From Hydrurus foetidus (lineage: Eukaryota), in assembly GCA_900617105.1 (NCBI GenBank), contig UYFQ01000521.1, forward strand, positions 1-61,227: a DNA stretch of 61,227 nt, written 5' to 3'. This document shows, piece by piece, positions 2,765 through 44,505 of the stretch. A program made the position numbers and the translations under genes. The notes below the pieces were generated by a model. The model was not told where the DNA came from, did not search any database, and was given only the letters and a program-made list of their open reading frames with translations. Each line of letters begins with the position of its first letter. The first letter of the stretch is position 1.

Positions 2765-3098
2765 TGTTGACGGATCTTCGGTTTGGGTCACACGTACGGC
2801 TCTCGTTGTACAGTGGTTGAAGATCGCTCGGTCAAGACTCGTGGAATAAGCTTTGTATAAGCAGTAAGCACCTGTTAATTGACTGTGCTTCATCCCTGCT
2901 GAAGTCCCCGAGTCTCCTTCAACGCAACAACAAAAGTCATTTCTACTCTACGCTTGAAGTACAGCGACGATGCACGGGTCCCTTCATCGTCGACACGCAT
3001 GTACGCACACACACACGCACACAAATTAATCCGTACGTCTGTACGAATGCATAAGTACACAGATTGTGTCCGTGTCATAAACTACGATATCTCCAACA
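2765..3098 (-). repeat. Copia-1 3' LTR
   Basis: Direct repeat of 7525-7858; one substitution seen by eye. Confidence 0.97.
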
Positions 3099-7514: not shown

Positions 7515-7524
7515 CAGTCAATTA
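7515..7524 (-). other. Copia-1 PBS position TAATTGACTG, complementary to CAGTCAATTA in its own LTR (7636-7645)
   Basis: Directly abuts the 5' LTR; 10/10 reverse complement of an LTR-internal site; no TGG tRNA-acceptor signature. Confidence 0.8.
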
Positions 7525-7858
7525 TGTTGACGGATCTTCTGTTTGGGTCACACGTACGGCTCTCGTTGTACAGTGGTTGAAGATCGCTCGGTCAAGACTC
7601 GTGGAATAAGCTTTGTATAAGCAGTAAGCACCTGTTAATTGACTGTGCTTCATCCCTGCTGAAGTCCCCGAGTCTCCTTCAACGCAACAACAAAAGTCAT
7701 TTCTACTCTACGCTTGAAGTACAGCGACGATGCACGGGTCCCTTCATCGTCGACACGCATGTACGCACACACACACGCACACAAATTAATCCGTACGTCT
7801 GTACGAATGCATAAGTACACAGATTGTGTCCGTGTCATAAACTACGATATCTCCAACA
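7525..7858 (-). repeat. Copia-1 5' LTR
   Basis: Direct repeat of 2765-3098; the gag ATG (7500) lies 25 nt downstream on the minus strand. Confidence 0.97.
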
Positions 7859-10680: not shown

Positions 10681-11982
10681 TTAGATAGTTAACCAACGTA
10701 TTTTACCATTTAACCATTGCACGTCGAAGTGTTTGATTAATTTCTTTTGTAGCAATGTATGTTCATTAGTAATTTCTACTTCAACATCACTATTAAGGGA
10801 GTTAGCAAAATTAATATTATTCATGTTGTAAGTCAAATAGCCACAACTGGAATGATCGATATTATTTTCCAATGTTCTTACCACGCGACGTTTATTACGA
10901 TCAGGACATATTTGCTCATCTTCATCATTGTGACAGTTGTGTAGTTCTGATTTCCATCTTATATCATATCCATCAAATTCATGCAGCATATTATGTAATA
11001 TAACACAAGAATATACTGCATTATCAATGTCACTTTTGCGATGCCATGTGGCAGCATTCTTCAGGAACTGAAATCGTTTCTTGAGGATACCAAATGAACA
11101 TTCCACATCCTTTCTAACACTCTCTGCTCGCTCAGACCACCGCGTAGACTTTGCATCGAGAGAGAATTTGAATGGGTTTTGCATAATTCTCCACTTATGA
11201 TAGCCACCATCTACCAATAAATATAGCCCCTTCTCCAGAGCCCATTTCTTGTCCGCTTCCAGATACTTGAATTCAGTTTGCGTGTACAGTGGGTCATACC
11301 TTACCTTGTTAACGAAGCCATCAAATTTGACGATAGTCATATCTGATGTTGTACCATAGTGTCCAATGGTCGTAGCTTGAAAACGTTTAGTATGATCCAC
11401 TGTCATCTCATATGCAATAGATGCATAGCTGTTCTTTCCATTCTTGTAAGAGTTGAACCACAGTGAGGGACACATTTCCCATCTAATGTGAACGCAGTCA
11501 GTAGATCCAATACATCCTGGAAAACCATCAGCTGCATATAAAGATGTCACAGAATTTAATTCATCTGTATTCCTTGGTCCATGGACATGGATTGGATACA
11601 TTTCTTGAGTAAATTTGTAAATGAATTGGTAAGTCCATTTCCTATGAACCTCACTAGATACGCCTGATAGCTCATAAAGTAGATCCCAGCTACATCCTTT
11701 CCCTAGAATGCGTAAAGTCCCCAAAAGTTTCAGACAGACTGGTGGATTTTCCCTCAAGCAAATGTCGTATTGTTTCTGTGGGAACCACTTTTCGGCAAGC
11801 AGTAATAGCTGCTGATACAATTCATAAGGCACGGTGAACCTATTGCGAAAGAATTTCGAATCCCTTGAATCAAGATCACTGAAATTCCTCTGCAAAAATA
11901 GATACCAGCAACTCTGTTTGAAATTCTCTCTAGTATATACTTTTCTAGTCCTAAGTGTCCCATCCCTTTTCCTTCCCACCAT
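10681..11982 (-). CDS. PIF/Harbinger DDE transposase (433 aa)
   Basis: Motifs FPGCIGSTDCVHIRW, YLLVDGGYH and ESVRKDVECSFGILKKRF supply the D-D-E triad. Confidence 0.95.
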   Translation of the reverse strand: MVGRKRDGTLRTRKVYTRENFKQSCWYLFLQRNFSDLDSRDSKFFRNRFTVPYELYQQLLLLAEKWFPQKQYDICLRENPPVCLKLLGTLRILGKGCSWDLLYELSGVSSEVHRKWTYQFIYKFTQEMYPIHVHGPRNTDELNSVTSLYAADGFPGCIGSTDCVHIRWEMCPSLWFNSYKNGKNSYASIAYEMTVDHTKRFQATTIGHYGTTSDMTIVKFDGFVNKVRYDPLYTQTEFKYLEADKKWALEKGLYLLVDGGYHKWRIMQNPFKFSLDAKSTRWSERAESVRKDVECSFGILKKRFQFLKNAATWHRKSDIDNAVYSCVILHNMLHEFDGYDIRWKSELHNCHNDEDEQICPDRNKRRVVRTLENNIDHSSCGYLTYNMNNINFANSLNSDVEVEITNEHTLLQKKLIKHFDVQWLNGKIRWLTI

Positions 11983-12848
11983 TTAATCTTCTACCAAAAT
12001 AGCTTCAACATCGTTCAGAGTTTCATTCCAGCAATCTCTGCTACGTTTCAATCTTTGGAGACCAATTTCAACATCATCAGGCTCCTCATCTCCATCACCA
12101 AGCTCATCATCCACATAAACAAGTTTGCTTATAGACATGATTGTTAATAAAATTTATGATTCTTCTGTGTCCACAACCACCACCTCGTTGCCTAAAGTAG
12201 GTAAAGAAATATTTTTAGATGAATACTTTGGCATCGACAGTAAGGCACTACATCCAAAAACTTTTAATTCAGATGCAAAATTACAGATGCAGTAAGGCAT
12301 GCCATCCAGATTCTTTCAGCCCAAAAAAGTTCGGAAAAAAAAACCAAAAAATAAAAATCCAGATCCACATTTTTCGGATGCGATAAGGATCGGCCTAACT
12401 TTCTTCGAAAACACGTTTGTAATCGAATTTGAGTTCAGCACTTCTGAAACTGTGGGAAAATGAAAGCAAAAAATTCAATTGAGAATTTCTGACTTCAGAA
12501 ATGGATGCGCCACTGTTTGTTTAGTCGGGGACACTTCTCAAAAAGGGTTTTTGAAAAATTTTCATTTTAATGTTCTCGTGGCTACTAAAGTTCAACTAGG
12601 TTTTTTATTCCGACTTGGTCCTTGACACCACTGTGTTCCGTTAAAAATTCTAAAAGGTGTGGGAAATGCGGAAATACGCTAATTACACGTTTTGAATTTT
12701 GAACTGCTTACTAGCAAGGTCAGTCAAGTTAGATCAGAACTCATATCAGCTTCACAAATTTGATGATGACAGTTTGCTAGGACGGTTGACTTGTTTAAAG
12801 AGGCGTAGTCAAGATTCTGAAATTTGAGATTTTGTATCGGATGCCAAC

Positions 12849-27305: not shown

Positions 27306-27650
27306 TGTTGTGATTAGTGGACTCACAAGGGCATACGTATGTGCCAGTACGGCTGGCCACAAGCTCCCCACTGTCCTCTCCGACTGCTCTATACTCGTTG
27401 CAACTCGTTTGAAAAAGAAGAGGTTCGTATCGGCTACGAGATTGGGTTAATTAGCACTGCTGCAACGCAGTAGTTATCGGGTTCGGTTGGTAGTTGTTTC
27501 AAAGAGTTGGTAGCTAATCTGGTTCAATCGTATGTAGTACGGCACTGCTTTGGAGCAACACCGTACGTGTGGTTCAAATATGAAATACAGATAATAGCAT
27601 CACAATTTGTATACGGAATATCTAGTCTACATAATACTGATATTACTACA
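27306..27650 (-). repeat. Copia-2 3' LTR
   Basis: Direct repeat of 37745-38089; two substitutions seen by eye. Confidence 0.96.
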
Positions 27651-28274
27651 CACCCCTATGATGTGTTATCGTATTCAATTCAAACAGGTTTATTCAATTA
27701 TAATTTCAAAAGCGTTAGATTAATTCATACATGTTCATTTATAAATAAAGTTTCATCAATGGCTCCGGAATGTTACGTCAGTGTCTTGAAAATCGATCTC
27801 AGCGGGAAAAGAATATGGTAGAAGTTTGTGATAGGAATATGTAGGTGTTAGAAATAGTTGGCGGTTGGAATTGTAGGTTATAGAAGGAATGCTCGTGCTG
27901 GAGTCTTCATCATGATGGATCTTCAGCTAATGTATCTCGACCATGTGTGGTGTAGGCTCGAGTGTAGGTATCTTGAGTGTTCGGGTCTTGGAGGTTGATG
28001 TTGTAGGATAGCAGAAATTTGTTGGGATTGCAGATTCATAAAAATAGATTCATATAATACATAACGTTGATTTTGGCCAAAGTAGTAGAAAGGTTTTGGC
28101 AAAGCGTAGGTAGAAGAAAAATGTCAGAGTGGAATACTCAGGTTGTGGCGTGAGTCGGGGCCTAGGACGAAGGACGTAGGTTTTTGTGGGACGAAAGCAC
28201 GAGGTCAGAGGACGAAAGACGAAAGACGAAAGAGGAAAGAGGAAAGAGGAAAGAGGAAAGAGTTGGTTGCGAGA

Positions 28275-31200
28275 AAAGAAGTTGAGAAGTTGATATTTTT
28301 AAACGATCACTGTGATTCGAATTTAAAATTCTTTGCACAAAAGGAAGTGATGTTTTATAATCTTCTAGTGTGATATTATTGAATGTTAATGCACGATGAT
28401 GTCTATTAACTTCTTTATTCATGCGCTCAACAATAGCATTTTCTTCTTTAGAGTATGCTAAAGTAAGACAGTGTTGAGTGCCAATAAGAGTTAGAAACTC
28501 TTTAATAACTTCTGAAATGAAGTGTGGCCCATTATCAGAACGGAGTCGGAGAGATGCGCCGAAACGACCGAAATGTTGTAAGAGGCATTTAGCTGTCGAA
28601 AGTGCCGTAGCATCTTCTGTATGAAACAGTTCAACCCATCTTGTGAACGTATCGATAATTACGAGTACGTACCCGCCGTCTGGAAACGGTCCTATGAAGT
28701 CTATGTTAAGGTATTCCATAAGTGTGTAAGTGGAAGTCGAGAAGCCATGAGCATGTATGGGTATTTTGATCATACTCATCTTCTGACAACACTAACAGTG
28801 ATCTTTGAACCACCTGACATGCTGACGCATATATTGCCAGTCTATCTTTTTGTCAGTGAGTCGCTTTAGAGTGCGCTCAAGACCGAAACGACCAACTTGT
28901 GAGTTGTGTACTTTACTAATAGTATTGTACTGCTCACGTGTTAGTTTGAATTTCTCAACAGTATTAGCAGTCATAATTGCTTCAGGAGTATATTCCTAAG
29001 GAAAATCAACCATGTTATTGCGACAGAGTCGAGACATCGAATCAGCTATATCATTGTTAACACCAGGAATATATTCGATTTTAAATGAATATTCGAATAG
29101 GGCCATAAACCACCGAACAATCATTGGATTTGAACTATCCTTAATGTATAACAAGTTACGATGATCTGTACGTAAAGTAAACATACGATCACGTAATAGT
29201 GATCTTAAATACGTGCACGAACAAAAGATAGCATATGCTTCTTTTTGTATAACAGCCCAACGAAGCTAAGCTTTGTTAAATGATTTACTGACAAATGCTA
29301 TGGGCATCTCTTGACCGTCAACTAACTGGAAAAGATAAGCACCTACACCATATTCCGATGCATCAGTGTGCAAGTATATCGGATCGGTGTCACTTAAAAA
29401 GTGCGTAGTCGTGCATTTTGAAATCTAAGATTTGATCAAATTGAATGCCTTAAGAGCTTCTATTGTCCAAGTTATACTTATACTTATTGTAGTTAAGAAG
29501 CAGCTGATGCAACGGGTATACAACAGTAAATGCATTTCTAACACAGTCATGCAAATAATTAAACAATCCTAAAAAAACTTTTAAGTTGTTTAGATAGTAC
29601 TGGTTTAGGAAAATTTAAGACAGTCCGTATTTTTTCTTGTAACATTCTAAGTCCATCTGCAGATAAAACTTTGCCAACATAGTCAATTTCGGCGTAGCCT
29701 AGATAAGACTTATTAGCCTAGATAACATAGTATTTTGTGTTTTCTAAAGCGTTCAAAAACAAGACGAAGTCTAGAAATGAGTTCGTCAATGTCTTTACCG
29801 AAAACATTGCAATCATCGATATACATTTCGCATATAAAGTATATCAACCTTGCCAACACAACAGTTGACATGATCCGTTGGAAGTATGAAGGAGCTTGTT
29901 TAGGCCCAAAGGGTAAACGAGTAAATTGACATACACCGCAGAAAAGTATGAATGCAGTATAAGCGCGTGCAGCAAGTGTAAGTGGTGCTTGATGATATCC
30001 TTGTGTAAGGTCAAGTACAGCAAATACTTTTGCTTTATGTGCACCTATTCGTCGCAACATTTCACCAATGTGCGGAATAGGGTGTGATTCATCTTCGGTA
30101 CAACTATTAAGATTCCGAAAATCAATACACATGCGCTTAGTTCCATCAGACTTTGGAACCAGTAAAACTTGGCTATAATAAGCCGCATTTGATTTTTCAA
30201 CAATCCCTTGTTTTTCAAGCTTTGTAATTTGACTAAGAATATCAGCTTGATCAACTGTTGATTTAGACCATGGAGGTTGTCTATTTTTAGAGACTTTCCA
30301 TTGGCTATCATTGACATTAAAGTTAAATGGTGGAATATCAGCAGGAGTGGCCGAAAGTTTACTGCTGAATACATCCTGAAATTCGTGTACTAGTAATCGA
30401 AGTTTATTTTTCTGATTTTCATCACCTGTTATATGTATTAGCGAGAGTGGGTCTGTATCAGGGAATTCATCTATCCAAGGTGAAAACGAGTCCTTGATCA
30501 AGTCGTCGATTTCATCTTCATCAGGAGGCACTGCTCCAAAAAGTCTCTTAGACTCTTGAATTAGCGATGCTAGAATGACATGTGTTTGGGTGACTGCCGG
30601 TTTCACCTTTTGGGGTAAAGGATCCACTTTTGGGGAGCCGTCGGAGGGTTGCAACTTCTCCTTAGGCTGACAGCCACACGTTATATCCACATACTCAGAA
30701 GATAAAACTTTCGCTAACGGGATTGTGCTTGATGAAGCATTGGCAGATATTTGATCGGGGAATCGTGAAAACAAATTGAATTCACGAATTGTTTTTCGTC
30801 CCACTATTAGATCAAATTTCGAATCGTTTAAAACAAAAGCCGCGATTGGAAGGTATAATAATTATTTAAATCATGGCAAAAAATAAGAAAGAGTTAAGTC
30901 TATAGTGTCAGAATTATCATAACAATGATTATCTAAACCACTACAAACTTTACATAGTTTCTCTGGCGAGTTAGAAACAAATTGTGTAAAATTATGTTTT
31001 ACAATAGTGCGGCGATGAATAAAGTTGCCCGCGAACGATCCGGTGTCCAAAAGAGTGTAAACTCTATCACTTCTTTCCAGCATAAGCTCCTGTGAAAGAG
31101 GAGCAAGGAAGAATGGAATAAGTTGTGGGTCATCGGGGAGAGTAGATGATAAATTGAGGTTGCAAAGTTGCTCACCTTTGTGTTTCTTCGCGTTTTGTGT

Positions 31201-32553
31201 CGCATCTGCTGTTGAATTAGCAGATTTGGAAGTCGAAGATGACGACGAAGAAGAAGAAGAAGAAGAAGAGGAAGATGAAGAGGTTGGAGGCCTAGGCGAA
31301 GTTGGAATAAACTTGGCTTTGGGATCAACTTTCATCAACTGCTTATGACCCTCAGAGTTGATGTAGGGTGAGTCTGTACTGCTAAAGTAGGGAGACGAAG
31401 TGTAGAAACACGTGGCGACTAGATAGCCGAGTTTCCCACAACCTGTGCAAAGAGGTCTGTCTGATTTCTCTGATTGCACAGATTGCTCGTCCTCTCGTGG
31501 ACGTTTTTTGATTTTGTCCTGAGAGGAACGAGGAGGGGCTTTGATTTGGCGGGAGTGATCACCATACAAAGGGGAGACATCAATGAACCGTAAGGCATCA
31601 ATTTATTCTCGTAGCTTAGCAAGCTGCGCAAGCCATACGAATCGAAAGTCTTCGATTGTAATGAGTCTCGGTGTTGTGTTGTTAAGACTACGCTGTAACA
31701 CTGCTCTCCAATTAATTGGTTCGACTGGCAACTTATCGATGAGAATTTCAGTTGCCTGAAGTTGGAGAGTGGGTGTTTCATTAGGGAATGCCTCGACAAT
31801 ATCAGCTAGAAGCTGATCTGTCTTGTCTTCCACTGATTTGTTCTTCAGGTCGAATTGAATTGCGACTTAGGAGATAGTTTCAATGAAACTTAGTTTGTCA
31901 GTTCGATTGACAGCAGATGTAGGAACTGTGATGTTTAGTTCTCTACAAAAGTATTGATTCGTCCAATACTTCCAATTGTTACAAGCATCACGACGATCAG
32001 GATCTGTCGCGAATTTACGCTTGAGAAGCGTTGTAAACGATTGGTGGTTTGAAACATGGACGACATCAATAGGTTTAAATGGAGTTCCATTTGAAAGGAG
32101 AACCTCCATTACCCGAACTACTTCCTGACGAGAGGGCACAGCACTCAATTTAGGAGCTCTCTCACCCGTCTGCACATACTGCTGAGGAGGTGCCATCGTC
32201 CTTGGAATAGGATTCTCAGCCAAAGCTGGTGTCACAGATGAATCTGGTATCGCAGCCGCAGCTGGTATCTCAGCCGAAGCTGGTGTCACAGCCGGAGCTG
32301 GTAAAGCAGGTAATGCAGAAATACGGACATCAATGGCAGACATGACCGCAGGCTCCGAATTCCGCTGAGGAATCGGTGCAGACAGGTCGCCGGCGTGGTC
32401 CTGGGCCGCTGGTGGCCCAGGAGACTCGATATCTCCGCGGCGTTGCGTATGCTCCAAATAACGTTGTCGCGCTGCAATGGCTACAGCCCGAGGTAGAGTA
32501 CGTCGGCGTGCGTTGGTTGCCTTTGCTTTTTTCTCCTGGCGACGTAAGGCCAC
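28275..32553 (-). pseudogene. Gypsy-2 gag-pol, fragmented, integrase C-terminus deleted
   Basis: ORF pieces at 31867-32553, 31603-31833, 30871-31569, 29713-30804, 28996-29184, 28792-28974 and 28162-28779. Confidence 0.92.
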
Positions 32554-32624
32554 GTAGGAGTGGTAGGCGCGAAAACTTGAAAGCGAGAAAGGAATTTCTC
32601 CGAGAAAACTTCGGTCGATAGCCG

Positions 32625-32636
32625 AATATCGATATT
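32625..32636 (-). other. Palindromic PBS-position motif AATATCGATATT
   Basis: Perfect 12-bp palindrome overlapping the terminal A of the Gypsy-2 5' LTR. Confidence 0.8.
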
Positions 32637-32906
32637 GTGACGAGAGTCGGGGCCTAGGACGAAGGACGTAGGTTTTTGTGGGACGAAAGCGCGAGGTCAG
32701 AGGACGAAAGACGAAGGAGGAAAGAGTTGGTTGTGAGATAACGTTGTGGCTATAGTTTACAGTTGAATAGTTCAGGTGATGTGTACGCTAAGAGCACTCA
32801 CATCATGTGGAACTAAGACCTAAAACTGGAATCTGAGCGTATTGTACCTATTGTACCTAGTTAATCTAGACACATTGTATCCCCCTGGGGATGCAATAAG
32901 GCTACA

Positions 32907-35900
32907 AGGTGATGTTGAGTAGTAAGTCTCGAAGAGCTCTGAACTGCTCGCCTTGAAGGGGTTTTGTCAGCATATCTGCTAACATGTCATTTGTAGATTT
33001 ATAGATCACTTTAATTTCGTATTCTTTTATCCGGTCGGTAAGAAAAAGTACCGGATATCGATATGTCTTGTCCGTTCGCTGTTCAATCTTCCGTTGGTAA
33101 TAAGTTGGATAGTGGATTTGTTGTCTTGAAATATGATGGCTGGTCTGTTGGTGTATCCTTGAGCTATGATGAAGTATCTGGTCCATAGTACTTGATTCGC
33201 TGAACCACTAAGTCCCACTAACTCTGCCTCCGTACTCGACTTGGTGGTAAGTCTTTGAGTGGAGCCTTTTGCATAGATGGATCTTTTGCCGAGAGTGATT
33301 GTGCTTTATCTAAGATAATGCAACTTGGCTGTAATGGAGTGAAAATGTTCACGCGCAGAAGAGGTTATCAATGGGTTAGAAGTTTCCGGTAAACCGAAAA
33401 TAAATCCGTCTTAGCCGGTGTCGGTGACACCCCTATAATATCTTTACAGTCTTCTAGCAGCTTCTTGATGAATCCTTCCATGGTTATAATGACCTTTCCC
33501 GCCATCTCAAAATTGAACGTCATACCTATGTAATTAAGTAGTACTTTTCCTCGATGTTTTGTTAGACCAGGGTGTAGTTTTTCAATTTCGTCAGTAACAT
33601 AATCAACATGTTTTTCATCACAGCATGTGATCATCATACCGTCAACGTGAATTATTAGTGTGGTTTGTTTATTATTTGATTCAGTTCTGTTAAATAGAAA
33701 TATGTCATAAGGGTTAACAGTATACCCTAATAATGATAAGTTATGTGAGTTTTTAATTTAGTGGATTCTACACACCCATACAATGCTTTTTTCACTTTAA
33801 CAATGCATGTGCCTTTATCATTAATATATATAATATACGATTATATCAATAGATGTCAACACTCCAGTTTAATATTTATTCAGTCGCATATACACAGTAT
33901 GAGTGCCCTCTAAAGGCATGTCACTATTCAAAAATGCACCAGGAAAATCAATAGTAGCAATCGATCTACATTCATGGGCAGCAATTGAAGCAACAATAAA
34001 CAAGCTAGTAGTACTAACAGTTGGTGAAGATCCATTGTCATATATATCTCTGTCTTGTAAGTGGTCTCCTGCTACTAATCTAGACTTAAGCTTGTCAAAA
34101 TTACCGTCCGCCGTATACTTATTCTTTAAAACATGCTACTAGTTATGATGTTACTTCTTGAGTCTGACTAAGAGAGCTGATGAACACTCCCTCCCAAACA
34201 TCTTTTTCACACATCTGTTCCATTTCTTTTCTAATGGAATCTACAGCAATATTGCCTAACTTATCAATGCCATCTTTAACAGTCATGTTGAAAGCATATG
34301 AAAAATTGGTGGATGGTACATGATTCACAGCACTACATCTTATAGTGTAAATTCCTCTCCTAGGAACCCATTTGCCTGGTTGATGATTTCTAGCGCTACG
34401 TCTCAAAGCAGGCTGTTCTATCGCAGGCAGTGCATCAGTAAGTACGTCATCAACAGCGTACGTATCATCAATAACATCGGATGGTTGATATGGTGTAAGT
34501 ACTTCATGTTCATCGTGCACGTCATCAACATCAGGTGTAAAATATTCAGTCAAAGTATCGTCATACTCAACAGTTTCAATATTCAAATCATCAGTTTCTA
34601 TCCGTGTGTAGTCAAAATCATCTTGAGTTATTCATGTCACTCATATCATTAATGTCAGGTACATCAGGTATGTTATCAATATCGTTTATGTCATTCATCA
34701 TATATGGAACGGGTGCATCATGCTGTACATTCATTTCATCAACATATGAATCATCACACATTTCATCTGTGTGAGGTGTCACTGCATGGCTGAATCTACG
34801 CATATTTTTGTTATATATATTTTCATCATCATAGTAAAGTCCATCATCAACTATCACACGCTTATTCTGTTCAAATATAGGTTGACTAGCATTATTACTT
34901 TTGTTAATGTTTCTCTTTTCAGATAATCCATTAATGTAAGTAATAACTTCATCAGCCATAGGTAATGATGTGGCTTCTGTACGTTTAACTATCTGTTCGT
35001 TATTGAGTAACATGTAATACCAAGATCCCTCAAGGTTGCCTGCACTCATCAGAGCGGTAGCATCTGAAGTTCTGGCTTTATTACTGTTATCAATGTTGTC
35101 AGAATGTACTTGAACGTAGGCACCAAAACCATATTTCAATTCTTTATCTACGTTAATTTTTCTACCGTATAGTTTCTCCCTAGGGCTAACATAGTCAACA
35201 GTGTTCCTAGTCGGAACCAACACTATATGGTTAACAGCATATCTAACTAACCATCCTTCTAGTTTCTCAGTTAACTTAAAAAGGTAATGTGTTAATAACT
35301 GCTCTGACTCTCTCTTTAATCTGCATTATCTTACGCTCAACTACTGTGACTGCCTCTCCTGCACCTGTCATATCTAACGCAGTGCCTATGCTAGCTAGCT
35401 GGGTTTCAAACCAAACTGAATTGATCGCACCTTCGCCATCAACTCTAACTAGGTCTAGTTTGAATCCATACTTAGTAATATGTCTAACATCACTCTCTAG
35501 GCTAGTCCACAGTGTAAGGTTGGCTCAATTATTTAACTTATTCGCCATAACATATTCTAATGGCTTAACTACGGCAATTAAAAATGGGTTGCCGTTAACA
35601 AACATAATGTCTATATACATTATCTGATTCAAATCCTGGATATTATCTCACAATGGCTGTTCATCTTCAACCTGTGCCTGATGGCTTGGCGTTTTTCCCT
35701 TTAGGGAGCCCAAGTCAGGTCCCCAGATATCCAACGACCTAACTATATCTTGTGCTGTAATGTTACTGTTAACTAGTTTACCTTGACCTATCAGCTAGAC
35801 TAACTGACCAGGACTAAGGTAACCTAATTTCCTCTGATATTCTCTCGCTAACTCAGCTTGTTTAACCTGTCTAACTGTGTACTTTTTCATCTTATCATTC

Positions 35901-37726
35901 ACAGTTGTAACTAACATCAACTTAGGTTTACTTACCATACTATTCAGGTCACATATATAAATGTTATATTTAACATCCCTATTAAAGGAATTATAAATTC
36001 ACCTTTTTTAATTTGCAAAATGAAAAAATCTTCTTTACTATCATACTTCACTGAGTAACTATTATTTACCATGTTTGCAAAAGATAAAATGTTCGCTATA
36101 CAATCAGGGTCATAGTAAACTACTCCAAAATCTGTTCTCCCACATTCTCTGATTGTCAATGGCTCTCCTTTAGTATTTACTCCATTAACTACCAAGGGTG
36201 TGTGGGCAGATACAATGTCATAGAATAGTGTATCAGATCTAAATACAGATTCACCAGCGCATGTGTCAAGCAGCAGTAGATCATCACCAAACACTTCAGG
36301 ATTGTCTGTAATATCTATGCTAAATATGTTACTATCTACGGCTATGGTGTCCGTCTCTATCTCGGAATCTTGATCATCTATAAATTTGATTTGTACATAT
36401 TTAGATATACGTACGTGCTTATCATTATCATCGACAACACTAGTCACATTATTATTCACATTGCTAATTATGTCATCATGTAAAGAATCATGTAATCGAC
36501 TTACTTTCCCTTTCCTTTCCCGGGTGGTGTCGTGGATTTTCCTCCTGGGCTCTTGCCTCCTTCCTCTCCCCAGTATTGGGCTACAGTCTCGGCCACGTCT
36601 GCTCTACATTCGTAGGCAAGATGGCCGAATTTCCCGCAGTTATTGCAGGGTCCGCGCTTATATCCTTTAGGAGGTGTCGCTGTTGCAGTGTATACCGCGG
36701 CTGTCGGAGATCCTCTCTCGCTGTTGGTGCTATCCGATGAGTCAGCTCCATCCTTCACCCACCTAGCGCCAGCGCGCTCTTCCCGTTATGTCCTCCGGGA
36801 TATCCTCCTCGACCGCCTTTCTTGCCTCCTCTTCCAATCATAGAAACGGCATTGGCTCGTTCCATCGCACCCGGTGAGTTGTTTAGTACTTGGATGCCTC
36901 ATTGTAGGCCTCGTCCAGACAGTCTAGCCAAACCTTCAAGTTATTGATATAAAAATTCTTGAACTCTGAATAGTAGTTATTCAGTCCCAAAATAAACTTT
37001 ACTGCCATCCTGCCCTCAGGATATATCTCATCTATCCCCGTCCTGCCAGCCGCCTCAAACGCTTGTTGAATAGCGGTGAGAGCCTACTTGGTGTTGGTCA
37101 GGTACGTACTTAAATGCTCATGTGATAGCATCACCAGATGATCATATCGCTGCTGGATATTGTGCATCTGGTGCTCTGCTCCAAGTCTCGAATCTCCCAC
37201 ATGAGTCGCAAGTATTGCTTGCAGCAATTTTTGAGGGTCCTGCTCGGATTCAGCTTGAATTCCTGCAGTGACTTCCTTCACTCTGATCTTAGAGTTCTCT
37301 GACATTTGTCCCACCATTGCACCCACCATCTTCTTCCAGCTTTGTTCTGGCTTTGTTGTATTCAACTCGCTCGAGTTTCCATACCTCCCTGCCGTCCTGG
37401 TCAGCTCCTTCACCAGGTGGTGGTGGTATCGGTATGACTGGGTAGTCTCCCAGAGTACCGTCTGCTCCAAATATCAGACTGACTTTTGATTTCAAAGTCA
37501 TCATTGCATGTTCCTTCATTTTCACCATGAACTTAGTTACTACACCAGGGACAAAGTCCTTTCCTGGTGGTAAGTCTAAGTATGCTTCGATGGTTGGGAT
37601 ATTTCCCTTAAGGTGGTTGTTAGCGCTGGCTCCTCTTCCACGATTGTTGAAGTATCCTCCTCCTTTACCACGTCCTTGTGGCGGAGGGTTTCCACGCCCT
37701 TTCATAGTTGCAACTTCTTGTTGCAT
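32907..37726 (-). pseudogene. Copia-2 gag-pol, fragmented
   Basis: ORF pieces at 37289-37726, 37084-37470, 36501-36758, 35944-36459, 34618-35223, 34143-34586, 33368-33637, 33027-33218 and 32902-33186. Confidence 0.92.
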
Positions 37727-37733
37727 TCTATGA

Positions 37734-37744
37734 AGTGCGAATTA
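37734..37744 (-). other. Copia-2 PBS position TAATTCGCACT, 10/11 complementary to AGTGCTAATTA in its own LTR (37887-37897)
   Basis: Directly abuts the 5' LTR; one central mismatch. Confidence 0.7.
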
Positions 37745-38089
37745 TGCTGTGATTAGTGGACTCACAAAGGCATACGTATGTGCCAGTACGGCTGGCCACA
37801 AGCTCCCCACTGTCCTCTCCGACTGCTCTATACTCGTTGCAACTCGTTTGAAAAAGAAGAGGTTCGTATCGGCTACGAGATTGGGTTAATTAGCACTGCT
37901 GCAACGCAGTAGTTATCGGGTTCGGTTGGTAGTTGTTTCAAAGAGTTGGTAGCTAATCTGGTTCAATCGTATGTAGTACGGCACTGCTTTGGAGCAACAC
38001 CGTACGTGTGGTTCAAATATGAAATACAGATAATAGCATCACAATTTGTATACGGAATATCTAGTCTACATAATACTGATATTACTACA
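37745..38089 (-). repeat. Copia-2 5' LTR
   Basis: Direct repeat of 27306-27650; the gag ATG at 37726 follows on the minus strand. Confidence 0.96.
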
Positions 38090-38108
38090 CTCTATACTCT
38101 ATACTCTG

Positions 38109-38643
38109 TGTTCGGTATGAAGTATTAACAGGAGTATATGTTGATGTATAATGGCGTCATGACATCACCTCACTGGTGTAGTGGTTAGCGGAGCGCGCCG
38201 GCCTGCATATACCCTGGGGATCGAGTCCCAAGGTTTTCCTATTTTTACTCACGCTTATGTACGCACCGTTTTTATAATGCGTACGAATCTTTACTTCAAG
38301 ATACGAAAGTGCAAGTCCACGTTTTTACTTTCGTCAACTGACAAGACGAGAGTAGTATGGATGTAGACATGTAGTCAACAGCTAGTCTACCATCGCATAC
38401 TTCTTTATCACGTAACTAAGTTGAGAAGTTTCGACAACTCACAACCTTCCTTCATCCAAGAGGTCTCGTCAAATAGGAAAGCGCGCCTATTTGATCTGAG
38501 ACTCACAGATAAGGACACAGAACACATTTACAAGGATAAAGATTCACTGTTCAATATTTGATCTCACAGCTGAACGTTTACTGAACGAGTAAACGGTGAG
38601 GAATCAAGGGAACGCATTTACGGTTTTCACGAAAAGCCAATCA
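38109..38643 (+). repeat. Copia-3 5' LTR
   Basis: TG...CA direct repeat of 43862-44396. Confidence 0.98.
38167..38237 (+). promoter_or_regulatory. tRNA-like RNA polymerase III internal promoter (A box and B box) in the Copia-3 LTR; second copy at 43920-43990
   Basis: TGGTGTAGTGG at 38174-38184 and GGATCGAGTCC at 38218-38228, 44 nt apart as in tRNA, followed by T4 and T5 runs. The acceptor stem does not pair, so it is not a tRNA gene. Confidence 0.6.
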
Positions 38644-38653
38644 TAAAGAAGTA
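38644..38653 (+). other. Copia-3 PBS position TAAAGAAGTA, complementary to TACTTCTTTA in its own LTR (38398-38407)
   Basis: 10/10 match (11/11 counting the LTR terminal A); directly abuts the 5' LTR. Confidence 0.82.
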
Positions 38654-38727
38654 ACCACCTTAGCGCGATAGCTTCCGCTAAGTCGAAGAGTCCAGAGAGC
38701 ATCTGGCCGCAGAGAGGATCTGCTGAA

Positions 38728-41700
38728 ATGTCCGGACGCGGACAAGAAATGAGAGGGCACCGAAGGTGGGCCGGCCGAGGCCGCGGAGGAAGAGGATTCC
38801 CCCCACCAGCTCGAGATGGGCTGAAGTCAGAGACAAGGTTCACAGGAGCCAATCCAGAGCTCCCATCACTTAACTATGGAGCCGCCCAAAAAGAAAATCG
38901 ACCGATAGAGTTTCTTCAGCTCTTCGGTGAACATTGCGCCATAAACTACAAGGCGATCATCGCTCAAGCATTCTGGACGTCCCCGCCAGAGTTTGGAGAA
39001 GACATCCTTGAGCCAGAAATTCCAGATCCCATCCCAAATACCAACGTTGGCAAGGTTATGATCGCCGACTACACAAATGACAGGAAAGAGTGGAAGGCCG
39101 AAATGAAAAAGACAGAAGACCACAAGAAAGCAATATTCGCATTAGTTTACTCCCAACTAAGCGAATCATCAAGGAGTGAGGTGCAAGATCACGAAGATTG
39201 GGCCGACAACTTCCTAGCAAGGGATCTACTCTATTTAATCACAAGAATCCGGGCTACACACATATCAAGACAAAGTGGAAATCCTGGCCAAGACATGGAG
39301 AGGGTTCGGACCATATGGGCAAATATGAGGATGCAAGCCAATGAAACCAGCTTTGCGTTCAGGAAGCGTGTAGAAGATTATCAGCTTGAAAGGACATCAG
39401 TCGGTCTATTGGAGATTCCCAACGAGGAGCTTGTAATTGGTATCCTCAACCGATTAGACATGGCACGGTACACATCGCTCGTAAGGGACTACTTGGACAA
39501 CGAACGCCGAGGTATCGCTGAGCTCCCCGAGCACCCCGCAACTCTCTGGAAGGAGATCAAAGATACACAAGTAATAAGATTCAGGGGTATCGGCGGAGTG
39601 AATCTCCATGGTGTATACTTGTCGACGACTGATGAGGCAATGGCAGATGAAACTGACCTTGGACGTACTAGTCAGGGCAGAGGACGCGGGAGATCGACAA
39701 GAGGCCGCGGAAGAGGTCAAGGAAGAGGCCAAGGCAGAGGTCAAGGAAGAGGTCAAGGAAGAGGACAGGGCAGACCTGCACCCGAAGCACCCACAAAGTA
39801 CGAACCCATCAAACCAGCAGATATTATTTGCTGGAATTGTGGGAAGAAAGGCCACCGGTCTTCAGCTTGTCCGTTAAAAGTTGTACAGTTCATGGATGCC
39901 ACGGAGGATGCAAGCATTTTTCTCGCCACCATCGAGAGCTTCCGACCAGAACATGAAGACCACATACCAGATGTCCCTGAAGATAAAAACATTGTGTCAG
40001 TGTTTGTGTCGAGAGCAAAGACGGACTACAGTTCAGTGCTGATGCTGGACACACAAGCAAGCATACACTTAATTTCAAATCCAGACTTACTGATCGATGT
40101 GACCACGTCACCTCATGCGATAACAGTACAGGGCATCACAGGAGATCGGACTAAAGTTACCTTGATGGGGAGGATCCAAACAATAGGTATCGATGCATAC
40201 CATGACACAACCGTAGCAGCCAATATTTTAAGCTATCAGAGGTTGCTGCAAACGCACAGCGTCCAATACAGAGAGAGCGACGATACATTTGTTGCCACTC
40301 CATTCGTGCTCGGACCAGTGCTTGTATTCGGGTGCATTAATGGCCACTACATACTCGACTTGACCACAGTGGTGAACACGTACTTCACAAGTGTCAACGA
40401 GAAGGCTGCGAAGTACAGCAAAAGGCAGCTGATCAACGCCAGGAAGGCATATGAGTTCATTATCCGCATGGGCTTTATCAGTTATAAATCAGCCGCAGAA
40501 GTCGTTCAGCGTGGCAGCATCAATGACTTAGGATTCACTCGGTCCGACCTAGTGAACGCACAAGATATATATGGAACACCAGCGGCATATCAGTTGGGAC
40601 AAGGGACACAAAGAAAGAACGCACCAGCAGAAGACGATCCCATACCTTTACACGAATCAGTAGAACAAGAGCTTCAAGTGGACCTCTTCTTCTTCCTAGG
40701 ACAAGCCTTCTTCATTAGCATTTCAGTCCTGCTTGGTCTGATAATGGTAACGCATTTGGGTCCCGGAATCGATCGGAGCAAGGAAGCAAGGGTGTCTCAT
40801 GGCGATGGTGCAAAATCCAAGGCTGGAAGATCATTACTTATGCACATCAACCAATACGCTGCGAAAGGGTTTTCAATTAAACGTGTGACGAGTGATGGCG
40901 AAGCATCCGTTCGAGCTGTACGTTCCGATGTGGAGGCCCTTGGTGTCGAATTGAATATTCTTGGTCATGGGTCCCATACTCCCCATGCTGAAGCTGCTAT
41001 AAGACATATCAAAAATAAAGCAAGGTCAACAATGTACAGTTTACCATATCCGCTACCATCAAAATTGGCAGCTGCATTGATTGCATTCGTCGTGCACACA
41101 GCAAATATGGTTCCAAAAGTCAATGCTGTTGGACACTTACCAGCACATACCGCATTTATGGGAAGAATCCCCAACTTTGCAAAAGATGCTCCACATGCGT
41201 TTGGTACAGCTGGCTTTCTGCAACGAGTACAAGGGCCATTGAGCAATACTGCAGCTCCTCGGGGAGACTACTGCATCTGGCTTGGGACAACCCATAATCT
41301 GGCTGGGACACATCGCTGCTTAAACCTTGATACACTTAGAGAAATCACGGGTGACACATTCAGACCAGCACTATTGACCAACGCAGCCATCCTGCGACTG
41401 TCACAACTGGCAGGTGTAACAAGAACACGCCCTATCTCAAGTGAAGTAGAAGCGCCGCTGCAAAATCCTAATCCTCGCTATGCACTGGATCCGACTCGAG
41501 GGGTAGAGCCAGAGCGAGAGCAGAACGAACAGTTTCCACAGAACGAAATGGTTACTGATATTGTTACTGCAGACTCCTTAGCAAGCGAATCGGCCCCAGT
41601 GGCAGATGGAAGTGGAGAAATGGCTGTTGCAGTCGAGACCATAGAGAGAGCTGTAACATTTGAAGGACTACAGCAAGACATGATCGACGTTGAAAGCGAA

Positions 41701-43623
41701 ACACTTCTTCAAGAGGACAACCAACTGGAGATACAAGAAGAGCTATTGGAGATCCCTGACAGAACAGTCACACAAGCTGCAGAGCTGGTCACTGTGAGGA
41801 ATACCATCAACAAAGGGTACAATCTCAGAGCATCAACTCGAGACAAGCATGTCTATTCAACGTTCTCTATTCAAGCTGCAAGAAAAGTGTTTGGAAGAGA
41901 ATTATCAGACAAGGCTACTGATGAAGAGTTGCGAATGTGCATTAAGAAAGATGTGTGGGAATACCTTGAGCCAAGTTACATTACAAGAGGTGCGATCCCT
42001 TCCAGAATGTTCCTGACTCCCAAGAAGTTACCTAATGGTGACATTGATAAAATTAAAGGAAGAATTGTGGCAGGAGGCCATAGACAGGATCGATCACTTT
42101 ACGAAGATAATGAAATTTCTTCACCAACAGTGGCCCTCACCTCAGTCATTGCTATGGCTGCACTCGCAGCAAGAGAAGGACATCACGTCATGACACTTGA
42201 TCACAAAGCTGCGTATTTGAATGCGAGCATGGAAGGCCCCCCAGTAGAAATGATGTTGTCACCCGAAGTCAGTGAAATCCTGTGCACCATCGACTCCAAG
42301 TACAGGAGATACATCAGAAAGGACGGGAAGATCGCTGTGCGGCTGAAGAAGGCTCTGTACGGATGTGTACAGAGTGCTGTGCTCTGGTACCGAGAACTTT
42401 CATCAACTCTCGAGCAGTTGGGGTTCCAGAGGAATCCCTACGACATATGTTCGTTTACAAGAATGAGCGATGGTGCAATGGATAAAATACTTGTGTATGT
42501 TGACGACTTATTCATCACCTCAAGTAATACAGACGCTCTGCAGAAGATCGCTGATGCGCTAGGAGCAAAGTATCCGACTGTTACTGTGAAGACAGGACTG
42601 CAGCATGATTTCCTTGGGATACACTGGGACTTTAGCACCAAAGGTCAGGCGGCGTTGTCTATGGAAGGATATGTGAAAGATGTAATCAGTAAATTTCAAG
42701 TCAAGAAGAAGAAGAGCACACCAGCAACTGATAGACTATTCTTAAACGATTCAAACAGCCCTTTGTTGGGGAAAATCAGAAGGGAGTCGTTCCATTCATG
42801 TGTGATGACACTACACTACCTTGCTAAGAGAACAAGGCCCGATATACTAACAGCAGTATCCTTCTGCGCAACTCGAGTCCTGTTCCCAACTGAGGAAGAC
42901 TCCAAGAAGCTGGACAGGATATTAGGCTTCCTACTCGGTACTCAACATCAGCAACTTATACTCAAGATTGGGAGCAAGCTGCAGCTGAGAGCCTATGTTG
43001 ATTCATCATTTGGAGTATACGAAGATGGGAAGTCAGTGACAGGAATTGTGATAATGTTAGGAGGAGCAACCATATATGTCAAGAGTTCTAAGCAAAAGAT
43101 CGTTACCAGGTCATCCACTGAATCGGAACTCGTCGGTATATCGGACGCTTTGTCTCAGATACTGTGGTCGAGGGAGTTTCTTCTTCAGCAAGGATTGTCT
43201 CTTGGACCAGCTGTGATATATCAGGACAACCAAAGCACTATATTTCTTGCGAGTAAGGGCAGATCTACAAGTGACAGAAGCAGACATATTAAAATTAGAT
43301 ATTTTTTCGTGTCACACTACATCGAAACCAAAGAAATTGTGGTCGATTATTTACCGACAGCAGAGATGGTCGCAGATATTTTGACGAAGCCCCTGCATGG
43401 TTCATTATTTTTGAAGTTCGCTGCTGCTATGACTGGGGCACCCGAAGCTGTGGGACTAGTTGAAAGTCCCAAAAGAAAACATCTGCAACACCCAGAGCCA
43501 CTGCAAAATCCCAAGTTCCAATCGCTGCATACCCCAGAACCAGTAGAAATTCCCAAGAGACAACTGCTGCAGAATGGATCGGACTGTACACGCCAGCTAT
43601 CTACTTCACAACTGCAGCTATAA
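38728..43623 (+). CDS. Copia-3 gag-pol polyprotein (1631 aa)
   Basis: Zinc knuckle CWNCGKKGHRSSAC, PR MLDTQAS, IN (LQVDLFF, TSDGE, AEAAIR), RT (KGRIVAGG, KALYG, YVDD), RNase H (YVDSS, TESE, YQDN, ADILTK). Confidence 0.98.
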   Translation: MSGRGQEMRGHRRWAGRGRGGRGFPPPARDGLKSETRFTGANPELPSLNYGAAQKENRPIEFLQLFGEHCAINYKAIIAQAFWTSPPEFGEDILEPEIPDPIPNTNVGKVMIADYTNDRKEWKAEMKKTEDHKKAIFALVYSQLSESSRSEVQDHEDWADNFLARDLLYLITRIRATHISRQSGNPGQDMERVRTIWANMRMQANETSFAFRKRVEDYQLERTSVGLLEIPNEELVIGILNRLDMARYTSLVRDYLDNERRGIAELPEHPATLWKEIKDTQVIRFRGIGGVNLHGVYLSTTDEAMADETDLGRTSQGRGRGRSTRGRGRGQGRGQGRGQGRGQGRGQGRPAPEAPTKYEPIKPADIICWNCGKKGHRSSACPLKVVQFMDATEDASIFLATIESFRPEHEDHIPDVPEDKNIVSVFVSRAKTDYSSVLMLDTQASIHLISNPDLLIDVTTSPHAITVQGITGDRTKVTLMGRIQTIGIDAYHDTTVAANILSYQRLLQTHSVQYRESDDTFVATPFVLGPVLVFGCINGHYILDLTTVVNTYFTSVNEKAAKYSKRQLINARKAYEFIIRMGFISYKSAAEVVQRGSINDLGFTRSDLVNAQDIYGTPAAYQLGQGTQRKNAPAEDDPIPLHESVEQELQVDLFFFLGQAFFISISVLLGLIMVTHLGPGIDRSKEARVSHGDGAKSKAGRSLLMHINQYAAKGFSIKRVTSDGEASVRAVRSDVEALGVELNILGHGSHTPHAEAAIRHIKNKARSTMYSLPYPLPSKLAAALIAFVVHTANMVPKVNAVGHLPAHTAFMGRIPNFAKDAPHAFGTAGFLQRVQGPLSNTAAPRGDYCIWLGTTHNLAGTHRCLNLDTLREITGDTFRPALLTNAAILRLSQLAGVTRTRPISSEVEAPLQNPNPRYALDPTRGVEPEREQNEQFPQNEMVTDIVTADSLASESAPVADGSGEMAVAVETIERAVTFEGLQQDMIDVESETLLQEDNQLEIQEELLEIPDRTVTQAAELVTVRNTINKGYNLRASTRDKHVYSTFSIQAARKVFGRELSDKATDEELRMCIKKDVWEYLEPSYITRGAIPSRMFLTPKKLPNGDIDKIKGRIVAGGHRQDRSLYEDNEISSPTVALTSVIAMAALAAREGHHVMTLDHKAAYLNASMEGPPVEMMLSPEVSEILCTIDSKYRRYIRKDGKIAVRLKKALYGCVQSAVLWYRELSSTLEQLGFQRNPYDICSFTRMSDGAMDKILVYVDDLFITSSNTDALQKIADALGAKYPTVTVKTGLQHDFLGIHWDFSTKGQAALSMEGYVKDVISKFQVKKKKSTPATDRLFLNDSNSPLLGKIRRESFHSCVMTLHYLAKRTRPDILTAVSFCATRVLFPTEEDSKKLDRILGFLLGTQHQQLILKIGSKLQLRAYVDSSFGVYEDGKSVTGIVIMLGGATIYVKSSKQKIVTRSSTESELVGISDALSQILWSREFLLQQGLSLGPAVIYQDNQSTIFLASKGRSTSDRSRHIKIRYFFVSHYIETKEIVVDYLPTAEMVADILTKPLHGSLFLKFAAAMTGAPEAVGLVESPKRKHLQHPEPLQNPKFQSLHTPEPVEIPKRQLLQNGSDCTRQLSTSQLQL

Positions 43624-43861
43624 CCGTCTTGCTCACCGTGGCCACAGTGCTTCCGACGGTATATATACAAGAAGTGTGCAGCCTTCTATTGTGGATTAAA
43701 TTGTGTCGATTGCTGAGAAGTGCGCAGCGTCGAGCTCGCGATTTGTGCCAAGAATTTGCGTTTTCGATCATGAGAGCCATCAATTTTTTTTTTTAGACCC
43801 CCCCTCGCCAGCACCATGAATTTTCGAATAATCTTGGAAAGCTACGCCGCATTAAGGGGTA

Positions 43862-44396
43862 TGTTCGGTATGAAGTATTAACAGGAGTATATGTTGATGT
43901 ATAATGGCGTCATGACATCAACTCACTGGTGTAGTGGTTAGCGGAGCGCGCCGGCCTGCATATACCCTGGGGATCGAGTCCCAAGGTTTTCCTATTTTTA
44001 CTCACGCTTATGTACGCACCGTTTTTATAATGCGTACGAATCTTTACTTCAAGATACGAAAGTGCAAGTCCACGTTTTTACTTTCGTCAACTGACAAGAC
44101 GAGAGTAGTATGGATGTAGACATGTAGTCAACAGCTAGTCTACCATCGCATACTTCTTTATCACGTAACTAAGTTGAGAAGTTTCGACAACTCACAACCT
44201 TCCTTCATCCAAGAGGTCTCGTCAAATAGGAAAGCGCGCCTATTTGATCTGAGACTCACAGATAAGGACACAGAACACATTTACAAGGATAAAGATTCAC
44301 TGTTCAATATTTGATCTCACAGCTGAACGTTTACTGAACGAGTAAACGGTGAGGAATCAAGGGAACGCATTTACGGTTTTCACGAAAAGCCAATCA
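43862..44396 (+). repeat. Copia-3 3' LTR
   Basis: TG...CA direct repeat of 38109-38643. Confidence 0.98.
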
Positions 44397-44505
44397 CTCT
44401 GTACTCCTCCATCTTCCAACCTTCAATCTTCATCATCTGTAATACCCATCATATGCAATTCTGTGCACTAAAACTTCACGCAATCTTATCCTTCTGAGAG
44501 AAACC

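What the first reader, a model, noticed from the sequence alone, without database searches (positions are those of the whole stretch)
38398..38653. Self-priming signature in an intact copia element, shared by all three copia families
Seen: the Copia-3 PBS position TAAAGAAGTA is the exact reverse complement of 38398-38407 in its own LTR. Copia-1 (10/10) and Copia-2 (10/11) show the same arrangement with different sequences; each PBS starts TAA directly after the LTR CA. A chance perfect 10-mer in about 500 bp is roughly 5e-4 per element. Established: Schizosaccharomyces Tf1 primes with the first 11 nt of its mRNA after RNase H cleavage, a mechanism best known in Ty3/gypsy elements. I recall a similar proposal for a diatom copia element but cannot verify it. 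Inference: a copia lineage with tRNA-independent priming, with transcription starting at about 38398.
Basis: partly seen in the sequence, partly recalled or inferred. Interest (0 to 1): 0.85.

Follow-up and report, generated by a model that had tools for sequence, protein, structure and literature searches.

The report
Self-priming copia retrotransposons of golden algae
Three unrelated jumping genes in a likely golden-alga genome, and most of their distant relatives, have no tRNA-binding site but a stretch that pairs with the predicted first bases of their own RNA, so this whole branch likely starts copying itself without a host tRNA, a trick proven so far only in the yeast element Tf1 and its kin.

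Summary
Observation confirmed. In all three copia elements (LTR ends fixed by 5-bp TSDs) the bases directly after the 5' LTR are the reverse complement of a site inside that LTR: 10/10, 10/10, 10/11. The same holds in 39 of 60 testable relatives, against 1.7 in shuffles. The sequences all differ and pair almost only with their own LTR (2 of 1,482 cross-pairs). The pairing stops at a C-A initiator-like motif in 31 of 39, against 14 of 102 chance duplexes, which indirectly places the RNA start there (38397/38398). The host is likely a chrysophyte; diatom proteins nest in the same clade, which is far from tRNA-primed copia. Best reading: self-primed reverse transcription (0.85). No start site, primer or cleavage was observed, and Tf1's flanking 'pretzel' helices were not found. 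Self-priming is already predicted for plant TAR copia (PMC6317226), so this is a new variant: probably a separate origin in a large stramenopile branch, not found in print by my searches. This scan noted the same thing before in other, mostly diatom, genomes.

The parts
38104..38108 (+). E3 left target-site duplication (CTCTG; right copy at 44397-44401)
38109..38643 (+). E3 5' LTR (TG...CA, 535 bp); predicted U3 to about 38396, R+U5 from 38397/38398
   Evidence: the U3/R split is inferred
38395..38399 (+). E3 initiator-like motif (GCATA); predicted transcription start at A38397 or T38398
   Evidence: motif position conserved across relatives; start site not mapped
38398..38407 (+). E3 predicted self-primer (first bases of the RNA)
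38644..38653 (+). E3 primer-binding site, directly after the LTR's CA, exact complement of 38398-38407
38647..43623 (+). E3 single open frame (first ATG 38728): Gag with CCHC knuckle, protease (D468), divergent integrase, RT (YVDD at 1284), RNase H with conserved acidic residues
43850..43861 (+). E3 polypurine tract abutting the 3' LTR
   Evidence: same motif type in relatives
43862..44396 (+). E3 3' LTR
7525..7858 (-). E1 5' LTR (334 bp; 3' LTR at 2765-3098; coding region broken by stops and frameshifts)
7636..7645 (-). E1 predicted self-primer (initiator A at 7646)
7515..7524 (-). E1 primer-binding site (10/10)
2765..3098 (-). E1 3' LTR
37745..38089 (-). E2 5' LTR (345 bp; coding region broken; gypsy-type RT and integrase inserted between RNase H and the 3' LTR)
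37887..37897 (-). E2 predicted self-primer (initiator A at 37897)
37734..37744 (-). E2 primer-binding site (10/11)
27306..27650 (-). E2 3' LTR

Best explanation
These are Ty1/copia retrotransposons of a stramenopile branch in which the bases right after the 5' LTR pair with a site inside the element's own LTR, and that site is predicted to be the first 10-20 bases of the element's RNA, which likely serve as the primer of reverse transcription in place of a tRNA. Shown: the pairing, its position flush with the LTR end, its element-specific sequence, and its 5' boundary on a C-A initiator-like motif. Inferred steps: (1) Pol II starts at the A of the TCA(H)W motif or one base after it; (2) the RNA 5' end folds back over R-U5 (median 137 nt) onto the primer-binding site; (3) the RNA is cut at the 3' edge of the duplex, likely by the element's RNase H as in Tf1, giving a free 3' OH; (4) RT extends it through U5 and R. 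Because plus-strand synthesis normally copies the primer back into the new binding site (established for LTR elements), each cycle would rewrite the site from the RNA start. That would explain why the match stays perfect while the sequence drifts freely.
For: Window: 3 of 3 copia elements, shuffle frequencies 1e-3, 3.5e-4 and 5e-3. Relatives: a perfect, CA-anchored complement of 10 bp or more in 39 of 60 regions, against a mean of 1.7 (max 4) in 40 shuffles and 3, 3 and 1 for direct, complement-only and reverse-only matches. After de-duplication, 39 of 61 (two window elements included) carry 39 different 10-mers, cross-pairing in 2 of 1,482 tests, and none begins TGG. The anchoring CA forms a terminal inverted repeat of 4 bp or more with the PPT-adjacent LTR start in 24 of 30 (background 10.6%; 7 had no PPT in the region). 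The duplex ends at a CA in 31 of 39, against 14 of 102 chance duplexes in the same regions (p 2e-13). 22 of those 31 read TCAHW (background 12%) and 30 of 31 CAHW (background 40%), matching the diatom Inr-like TCAH+1W (PMC4686930) and the oomycete INR YCAYTYY (PMC3599244). The helix is predicted to form in 30 of 31 leaders (E3 z -4.08). The RNase H acidic residues are invariant in the family. Control: of 22 canonical copia loci, 11 hit a tRNA-type PBS motif (9 convincing by eye) and 1 has a self-primer-like site.
Against: No RNA evidence was available: no transcription start, primer or cleavage product was observed. 22 of 61 regions fail the fixed rule; many pass a looser, after-the-fact search, but some (for example L004, L059) still show nothing. 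Three of the 39 hits (L019, L030, L075) are probably chance hits at the wrong CA. The flanking duplexes that Tf1 requires were not detected (16 of 31 stronger than shuffles for either flank; p 0.76 and 0.64), and shuffling the spacer barely changes helix probability. The window's own duplexes are short and AU-rich (-7.7 to -11 kcal/mol), E2 has a mismatch, and all three have G, not T, before the CA. No host tRNA set could be compared.
Confidence: 0.85

Rival explanations
1. The element's own sequence is the primer, but not by Tf1-type cleavage in cis. The primer would come from a short separate transcript of the LTR promoter (including solo LTRs), from a second RNA copy in trans, or from a cut by a host nuclease.
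For: No Tf1-type pretzel flanks; duplex length varies from 10 to 21 nt; the spacer sequence hardly matters for folding. This is a sub-case of self-priming and shares all the sequence evidence of the best explanation.
Against: The helix is predicted to form in cis in 30 of 31 leaders. An intact RNase H is present, and Tf1 shows that such a domain can cut an RNA duplex (PMC7175516 passage). The base after the primer pairs with the LTR's last A in 19 of 31, a modest hint of a defined junction.
Confidence: 0.25
2. The 5' end to post-LTR helix is real but serves packaging, dimerisation or translation control, while priming uses a tRNA, a half-tRNA or another host RNA at or near the same place.
For: No host tRNA set was available to exclude a match for any one element; long-range 5' helices are common in retroelement leaders (own knowledge).
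Against: 39 different AU-rich 10-mers (82% AU) lie flush with the LTR end, where a tRNA would have to bind. tRNA-type motifs occur in 7 of 61 regions, none at the inferred LTR end, whereas canonical copia controls show them there. A tRNA-primed lineage keeps its binding site constant (PMC6317226).
Confidence: 0.07
3. The primer is the copy of the same sequence in the 3' R region of the transcript, which circularises the RNA, rather than the 5' end.
For: The sequence is present in both LTRs, so the transcript carries it twice.
Against: The pairing stops at the initiator-like CA in 31 of 39, as expected if nothing lies upstream in the RNA. In the 3' copy, U3 lies upstream and could have extended the pairing.
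Confidence: 0.04
4. Chance or an assembly artefact.
For: The sites are short and AU-rich; many relative loci are collapsed, circular-looking contigs.
Against: The window's elements have TSD-defined ends; shuffles, orientation controls and cross-element controls are all near zero; two-LTR relatives L011, L041 and L046 show the same pairing.
Confidence: 0.01

Closest known systems
Tf1/Tf2 of Schizosaccharomyces pombe and the Tf1/sushi group (Ty3/gypsy chromoviruses)
   Same: Binding site after the 5' LTR complementary to the first ~11 nt of the element's RNA; no tRNA; RNase H available for the cut (passages of PMC7175516 and bioRxiv 10.1101/2022.12.06.519325).
   Different: Other superfamily (copia domain order, RVT_2). 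No sign of the two flanking 'pretzel' duplexes. Primer length 10-21 nt, mode 15. No TATAWA box 18-40 nt upstream in 0 of 31. The mechanism is proven for Tf1 and only predicted here.
TAR lineage of plant Ty1/copia (Houba, Osr-1; REXdb)
   Same: Copia elements with self-priming predicted from a complement of 10 bp or more in the 5' LTR, in 89% of 203 elements; 5-bp TSD; single ORF (PMC6317226 passages and Additional file 5).
   Different: TAR is a plant lineage (its member Fourf is filed under Tork in GyDB). The clade here is stramenopile-associated and lies 0.88 substitutions per site (SH-aLRT 100) from 27 canonical copia RTs. No named TAR sequence was in the tree.
CoDi elements of diatoms (Maumus et al. 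2009, PMC2806351)
   Same: Stramenopile Ty1/copia lineages distant from canonical copia. Five Nitzschia inconspicua and Fragilaria crotonensis polyproteins nest with support 100 among loci that carry the self-primer.
   Different: The paper's main text describes no priming mechanism. No named CoDi sequence was available, so the CoDi group is undetermined. The window's host is likely a chrysophyte.
Fungal GalEa elements with a Conserved Hairpin Site (PMC5445492)
   Same: Copia elements without a tRNA binding site.
   Different: Their site is a conserved palindromic 9-mer whose complement lies 12-41 bp downstream, and the authors found no complement in the LTR. Here the site is variable and its complement lies upstream, inside the LTR.

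Membership tests
Ty1/copia superfamily | Domain order PR-IN-RT-RH with an RVT_2-type RT | tested here: met
   RVT_2 E 1e-25; PR D468, IN acidic residues 679/750, YVDD 1284, RH 1450-1580 in that order
Ty1/copia superfamily | TG...CA LTRs, 5-bp TSD, PPT next to the 3' LTR | tested here: met
   3 of 3 elements
Ty1/copia superfamily | Integrase recognised by the standard rve and pre-integrase (HHCC) profiles | tested here: inconclusive
   No Pfam integrase hit on E3, although acidic residues are invariant in 70 relatives; the integrase is divergent
Tf1/sushi group | Ty3/gypsy chromovirus polyprotein | tested here: not met
   Copia order, RVT_2, no chromodomain
Tf1/sushi group | Binding site complementary to a site in the element's own LTR | tested here: met
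Tf1/sushi group | [quoted passage not shown] | tested here: inconclusive
   Indirect only: initiator-like motif at the boundary in 31 of 39; start not mapped
Tf1/sushi group | Three-duplex 'pretzel' structure around the primer helix | tested here: not met
   Flank duplexes no stronger than shuffles, 16 of 31 each; a crude energy test
Tf1/sushi group | RNase H cuts the RNA duplex to release the primer | not testable with these tools
   Needs biochemistry; the catalytic residues are present
TAR lineage (plant copia) | RT-RH clusters with TAR elements | tested here: inconclusive
   Separated from 27 unnamed canonical copia RTs with support 100, but no named TAR sequence was included and both sets were sampled by motif
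TAR lineage (plant copia) | Land-plant host | tested here: not met
   The flanking host gene is closest to chrysophytes
CoDi I/II (diatom copia) | RT clusters with named CoDi1-7 elements | tested here: inconclusive
   Diatom polyproteins nest in the clade; no named CoDi reference was available
Fungal GalEa with CHS | Conserved palindromic 9-mer after the LTR, with no complement in the LTR | tested here: not met
   39 different sites, each with a complement upstream in its LTR; the window's sites are not palindromic

The most novel reading that the evidence does not exclude
A whole deep branch of Ty1/copia, spanning chrysophytes and diatoms and probably including the dominant CoDi-type elements of diatom genomes, has been tRNA-independent since its origin. 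It uses a minimal self-priming design: one helix whose primer is the host's initiator motif and the bases after it, with no pretzel. It arose independently of Tf1 and TAR, and a further case among half-tRNA-primed copia (L086) suggests that copia RTs switch to self-priming repeatedly.
Probability: 0.6. Interest if true: 0.75.

Novelty: new variant of a known kind. Interest (0 to 1): 0.62.

Why it matters
Priming by a host tRNA is treated as the rule for LTR retrotransposons and retroviruses. Self-priming is proven only for Tf1-type gypsy elements and predicted for one plant copia lineage. If a large stramenopile copia branch self-primes, the mechanism arose independently in both superfamilies, and a copia RNase H can probably cut RNA duplexes too. 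These elements would also escape control by tRNA fragments and be missed by tRNA-based PBS finders. The rule gives a base-exact transcription start for every element, testable with existing diatom CAGE or 5' RACE data and with transformable diatoms.

Tried and rejected
No whole genome is held for the window, so copies elsewhere and host tRNAs could not be examined. Sequencing runs: no RNA holder listed; the three runs are contigs and cannot show a start site. Whether other E2 copies carry a perfect 11/11 match was not determined. IMG/VR scans found no relatives and 0 and 1 canonical copia motif hits. ARAGORN found no tRNA in the window. Rfam found nothing at 37600-38900, so a tRNA-like look of U3 near 38170-38230 is rejected. 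PDB gave only low-complexity RGG hits. The ESM Atlas gave RVT_2 clusters with too few taxa to place the lineage. The representatives search counted 5,715 proteins at E 1e-30 or better but has no names and includes other copia. A TATA box upstream of the predicted start was not found (0 of 31). A mismatch-tolerant search without the initiator anchor picked wrong sites in several elements, E3 included, and was not used for counts. The initiator-anchored search is lenient and after the fact, and is not counted as a test. Dropped rows: 17 of 77 loci gave no testable region (short, or no RNase H or Gag anchor); 2 near-duplicates were removed; 1 element with a 477-nt spacer was left out of the folding tests; trees kept only rows with at least 250, 330 or 380 aligned residues. 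Literature: searches listed no paper that proposes self-priming for diatom, chrysophyte or other stramenopile copia (one search listed 30 of 2,695 papers, none containing 'self-prim'). Subscription journals and Repbase/GyDB entries were not searchable.

Full report
1. What is in the window. Self-comparison gives four LTR pairs. Three flank RVT_2 (copia) coding regions and one flanks a gypsy chromovirus. The copia LTR ends are fixed independently of the finding by TG...CA termini and exact 5-bp target-site duplications. E3 (38109-44396, +) is intact: one 1,658-codon frame, LTRs differing at 1 of 535 bases, and protease, integrase, RT and RNase H catalytic motifs in copia order. E1 (7858-2765, -) and E2 (38089-27306, -) are broken, and E2 carries a gypsy-type insertion. 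Their RT-RNase H regions are 37-40% identical to each other. The neighbouring RBMX2-like gene has its best named matches in Mallomonas annulata (74%), Paraphysomonas imperforata (72%) and Epipyxis (66%), against 55-59% for brown algae and oomycetes. The host is therefore likely a chrysophyte; this rests on one gene.

2. The ten bases after E3's 5' LTR (38644-38653) are the exact reverse complement of 38398-38407; E1 is 10/10 and E2 10/11. Shuffled LTRs match as well in 20 of 20,000, 7 of 20,000 and 20 of 4,000 trials. The chromovirus in the window has no such match.

3. It is a trait of the lineage. A 70-protein alignment fetched 77 metagenomic loci; 60 gave a region that could hold LTR plus binding site. 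With one fixed rule (perfect reverse complement starting right after a CA, 40-700 nt upstream), 39 of 60 reach 10 bp and 25 reach 13 bp. Forty dinucleotide shuffles give a mean of 1.7 (max 4) and 0.075; direct, complement-only and reverse-only matches give 3, 3 and 1 at 10 bp. Without the CA anchor, 32 of 45 best duplexes of 11 bp or more still start at a CA (13% expected). That CA is the LTR end: it forms a terminal inverted repeat of 4 bp or more with the PPT-adjacent LTR start in 24 of 30 (background 10.6%), and in L046 the two LTR copies diverge exactly there. After removing two near-duplicates and adding the window's elements, 39 of 61 are positive. They have 39 different 10-mers, which pair with another element's LTR in 2 of 1,482 tests, and none begins TGG. 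The positives span 33-85% RT-RNase H identity and are spread through the tree. About three of the 39 are probably chance hits (L019, L030, L075). Of the misses, some are truncated contigs (L037, L040, L050); many show a shorter, once-mismatched or split-contig site when searched afterwards (E2, L010, L011, L015, L026, L041, L049, L051, L061, L074, L077); a few show none (for example L004, L059).

4. The pairing boundary looks like a transcription start. In 31 of 39 positives the LTR-side arm begins at, or one base after, the A of a CA. Chance duplexes in the same regions do so in 14 of 102 (Fisher p 2e-13). Bases not used in the selection fit an initiator: 22 of 31 read TCAHW (12% of all CAs) and 30 of 31 CAHW (40%). 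The diatom Inr-like consensus is TCAH+1W (PMC4686930, passages), and the Phytophthora INR is YCAYTYY with starts usually at the A (PMC3599244, passages). The A itself is paired in 17 of 31 (about 30% by chance), so the start may be the A in some elements and the next base in others. For E3 this gives 38397 or 38398. The window's three elements have G before the CA, a weaker fit. No TATA box is seen (0 of 31). R+U5 has a median of 137 nt. Leaders folded from the predicted start form the helix with probability 0.5 or more in 30 of 31 (E3 in both MFE and centroid, z -4.08). A shuffled spacer does as well (p 0.06), and neither flank of the binding site pairs better than shuffles (16 of 31 each). 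So there is no support for Tf1's three-duplex pretzel (bioRxiv 10.1101/2022.12.06.519325, passages).

5. Against tRNA priming. The host's tRNAs could not be compared. A tRNA-primed lineage keeps one or a few sites (PMC6317226, Additional file 5), while here the site is free in sequence, 82% AU and tied to its own LTR. As a control, canonical copia loci were fetched with a recalled RT motif from contaminant contigs in prokaryote assemblies. Of 22 loci with a testable region (29 regions), 11 hit a tRNA- or half-tRNA-type motif (9 convincing by eye), 1 has a repeated palindrome, and 1 (L086) has a true 14-bp self-primer-like site. The same motifs hit 7 of the 61 in-group regions, none at the inferred LTR end. 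The motif names are from my own knowledge.

6. Mechanism. Shown: pairing, position, covariation and the initiator-like boundary. Inferred by analogy with Tf1, where the first 11 bases pair with the PBS and RNase H cuts between bases 11 and 12 (PMC7175516, passages): the RNA 5' end folds onto the site, is cut at the duplex edge and primes minus-strand DNA. Copying of the primer into the next generation's binding site would keep the match perfect. I put self-priming at 0.85. Within it, cleavage in cis by the element's RNase H is the likelier route (about 0.6 overall) and a primer supplied in trans or cut by a host enzyme about 0.25.

7. Placement. Relatives of L046, a positive, include Nitzschia inconspicua and Fragilaria crotonensis polyproteins at 56-60% (5 of 120 listed). 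They nest with SH-aLRT 100 among positive loci; their own LTRs were not seen. All 84 in-group rows are separated from 27 canonical copia RTs by a branch of 0.88 (support 100; E3 median identity 42% within, 28% outside). Both sets were sampled by a motif at the same site, no named CoDi, TAR, GalEa or Ty1 was included, and the trees are fast single searches, so the clade is unnamed and an independent origin is inferred, not tested.

8. What is known. Neumann et al. 2019 (PMC6317226; passages and Additional file 5 read; files 1 and 3 too large to read) predict self-priming for 89% of 203 plant TAR copia elements and cite earlier proposals for Houba and Osr-1. Maumus et al. 2009 (PMC2806351; abstract, term search and the first third of Results read; supplements unavailable and could bear on this) do not mention priming, Tf1 or tRNA. 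Donnart et al. 2017 (PMC5445492, passages) describe tRNA-less fungal GalEa elements with a different hairpin. PMC3601003, PMC5341516 and PMC5776459 (passages) add nothing on stramenopile priming. Nine searches listed no paper with this claim for stramenopile copia; the library lacks most subscription journals. After my analysis was done, the scan's own notes showed six earlier reports of the same idea in other genomes, five of them named as diatom; none is similar in sequence to E3. They are not independent evidence. This window adds a likely chrysophyte host and three families side by side.

9. Verdict. A real, lineage-wide feature; self-priming is very likely but not demonstrated. New variant of a known kind: the mechanism is known from Tf1 and predicted for plant TAR, but a large, separate stramenopile copia branch that uses it, with an initiator-defined primer and apparently no pretzel, was not found in print. 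Interest 0.62.

Noticed in passing
L086, about 500-560 nt after the RNase H end (contig JANYEO010000145.1): A canonical copia, nested among half-tRNA-primed elements in the tree, has a perfect 14-bp self-primer-like site directly after its LTR end, preceded by CCA in the LTR. Possibly another independent origin of self-priming; the host is an unknown eukaryote (contaminant contig).
   Followed up: partly
L029, L033, L074, L037 (subclade with L038; L037 lies apart in the tree): LTRs appear to start CG and end CG instead of TG...CA; in L029, L033 and L074 the self-complementary site follows that CG directly.
   Followed up: partly
window 50128-57562 (+): Gypsy chromovirus with identical LTRs and a 4-bp TSD. 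No tRNA-type site and no LTR complement after the 5' LTR; instead a 10-nt palindrome followed by a hairpin, reminiscent of the fungal GalEa hairpin site. Priming unexplained.
   Followed up: partly
window 38090-38108: E3 is inserted only 19 bp from the start of E2's 5' LTR, head to head.
   Followed up: no
window about 27650-33000 (-): Gypsy-type RT and integrase lie inside E2 between RNase H and the 3' LTR; the ends of the insert were not defined.
   Followed up: no
window 37737-38210: Contig depth over the E2 LTR is far higher than over coding regions, with many loose ends at 38089, suggesting many E2-type LTR copies. Summed contig depth is not a copy number.
   Followed up: no
window 38427 / 44167: One contig of run X2 joins opposite strands within the predicted R region of E3, 17-30 nt after the predicted start: a possible fold-back copy.
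   Followed up: no
window 7868-12632: PIF/Harbinger-type element with 238-bp inverted ends and a Plant_tran transposase, 9 bp from E1's 5' LTR.
   Followed up: no
window 23661-24932 (-): DUF6570 frame, likely part of a Helitron-like element (own knowledge).
   Followed up: no
window 59559-61227 and 16669-17446: Long degenerate (TGG)n array running to the window's end, and a (TATAC)n array.
   Followed up: no
other pieces of the same assembly: Earlier notes on them describe Brevundimonas-type bacterial DNA, so the assembly appears to be mixed.
   Followed up: no
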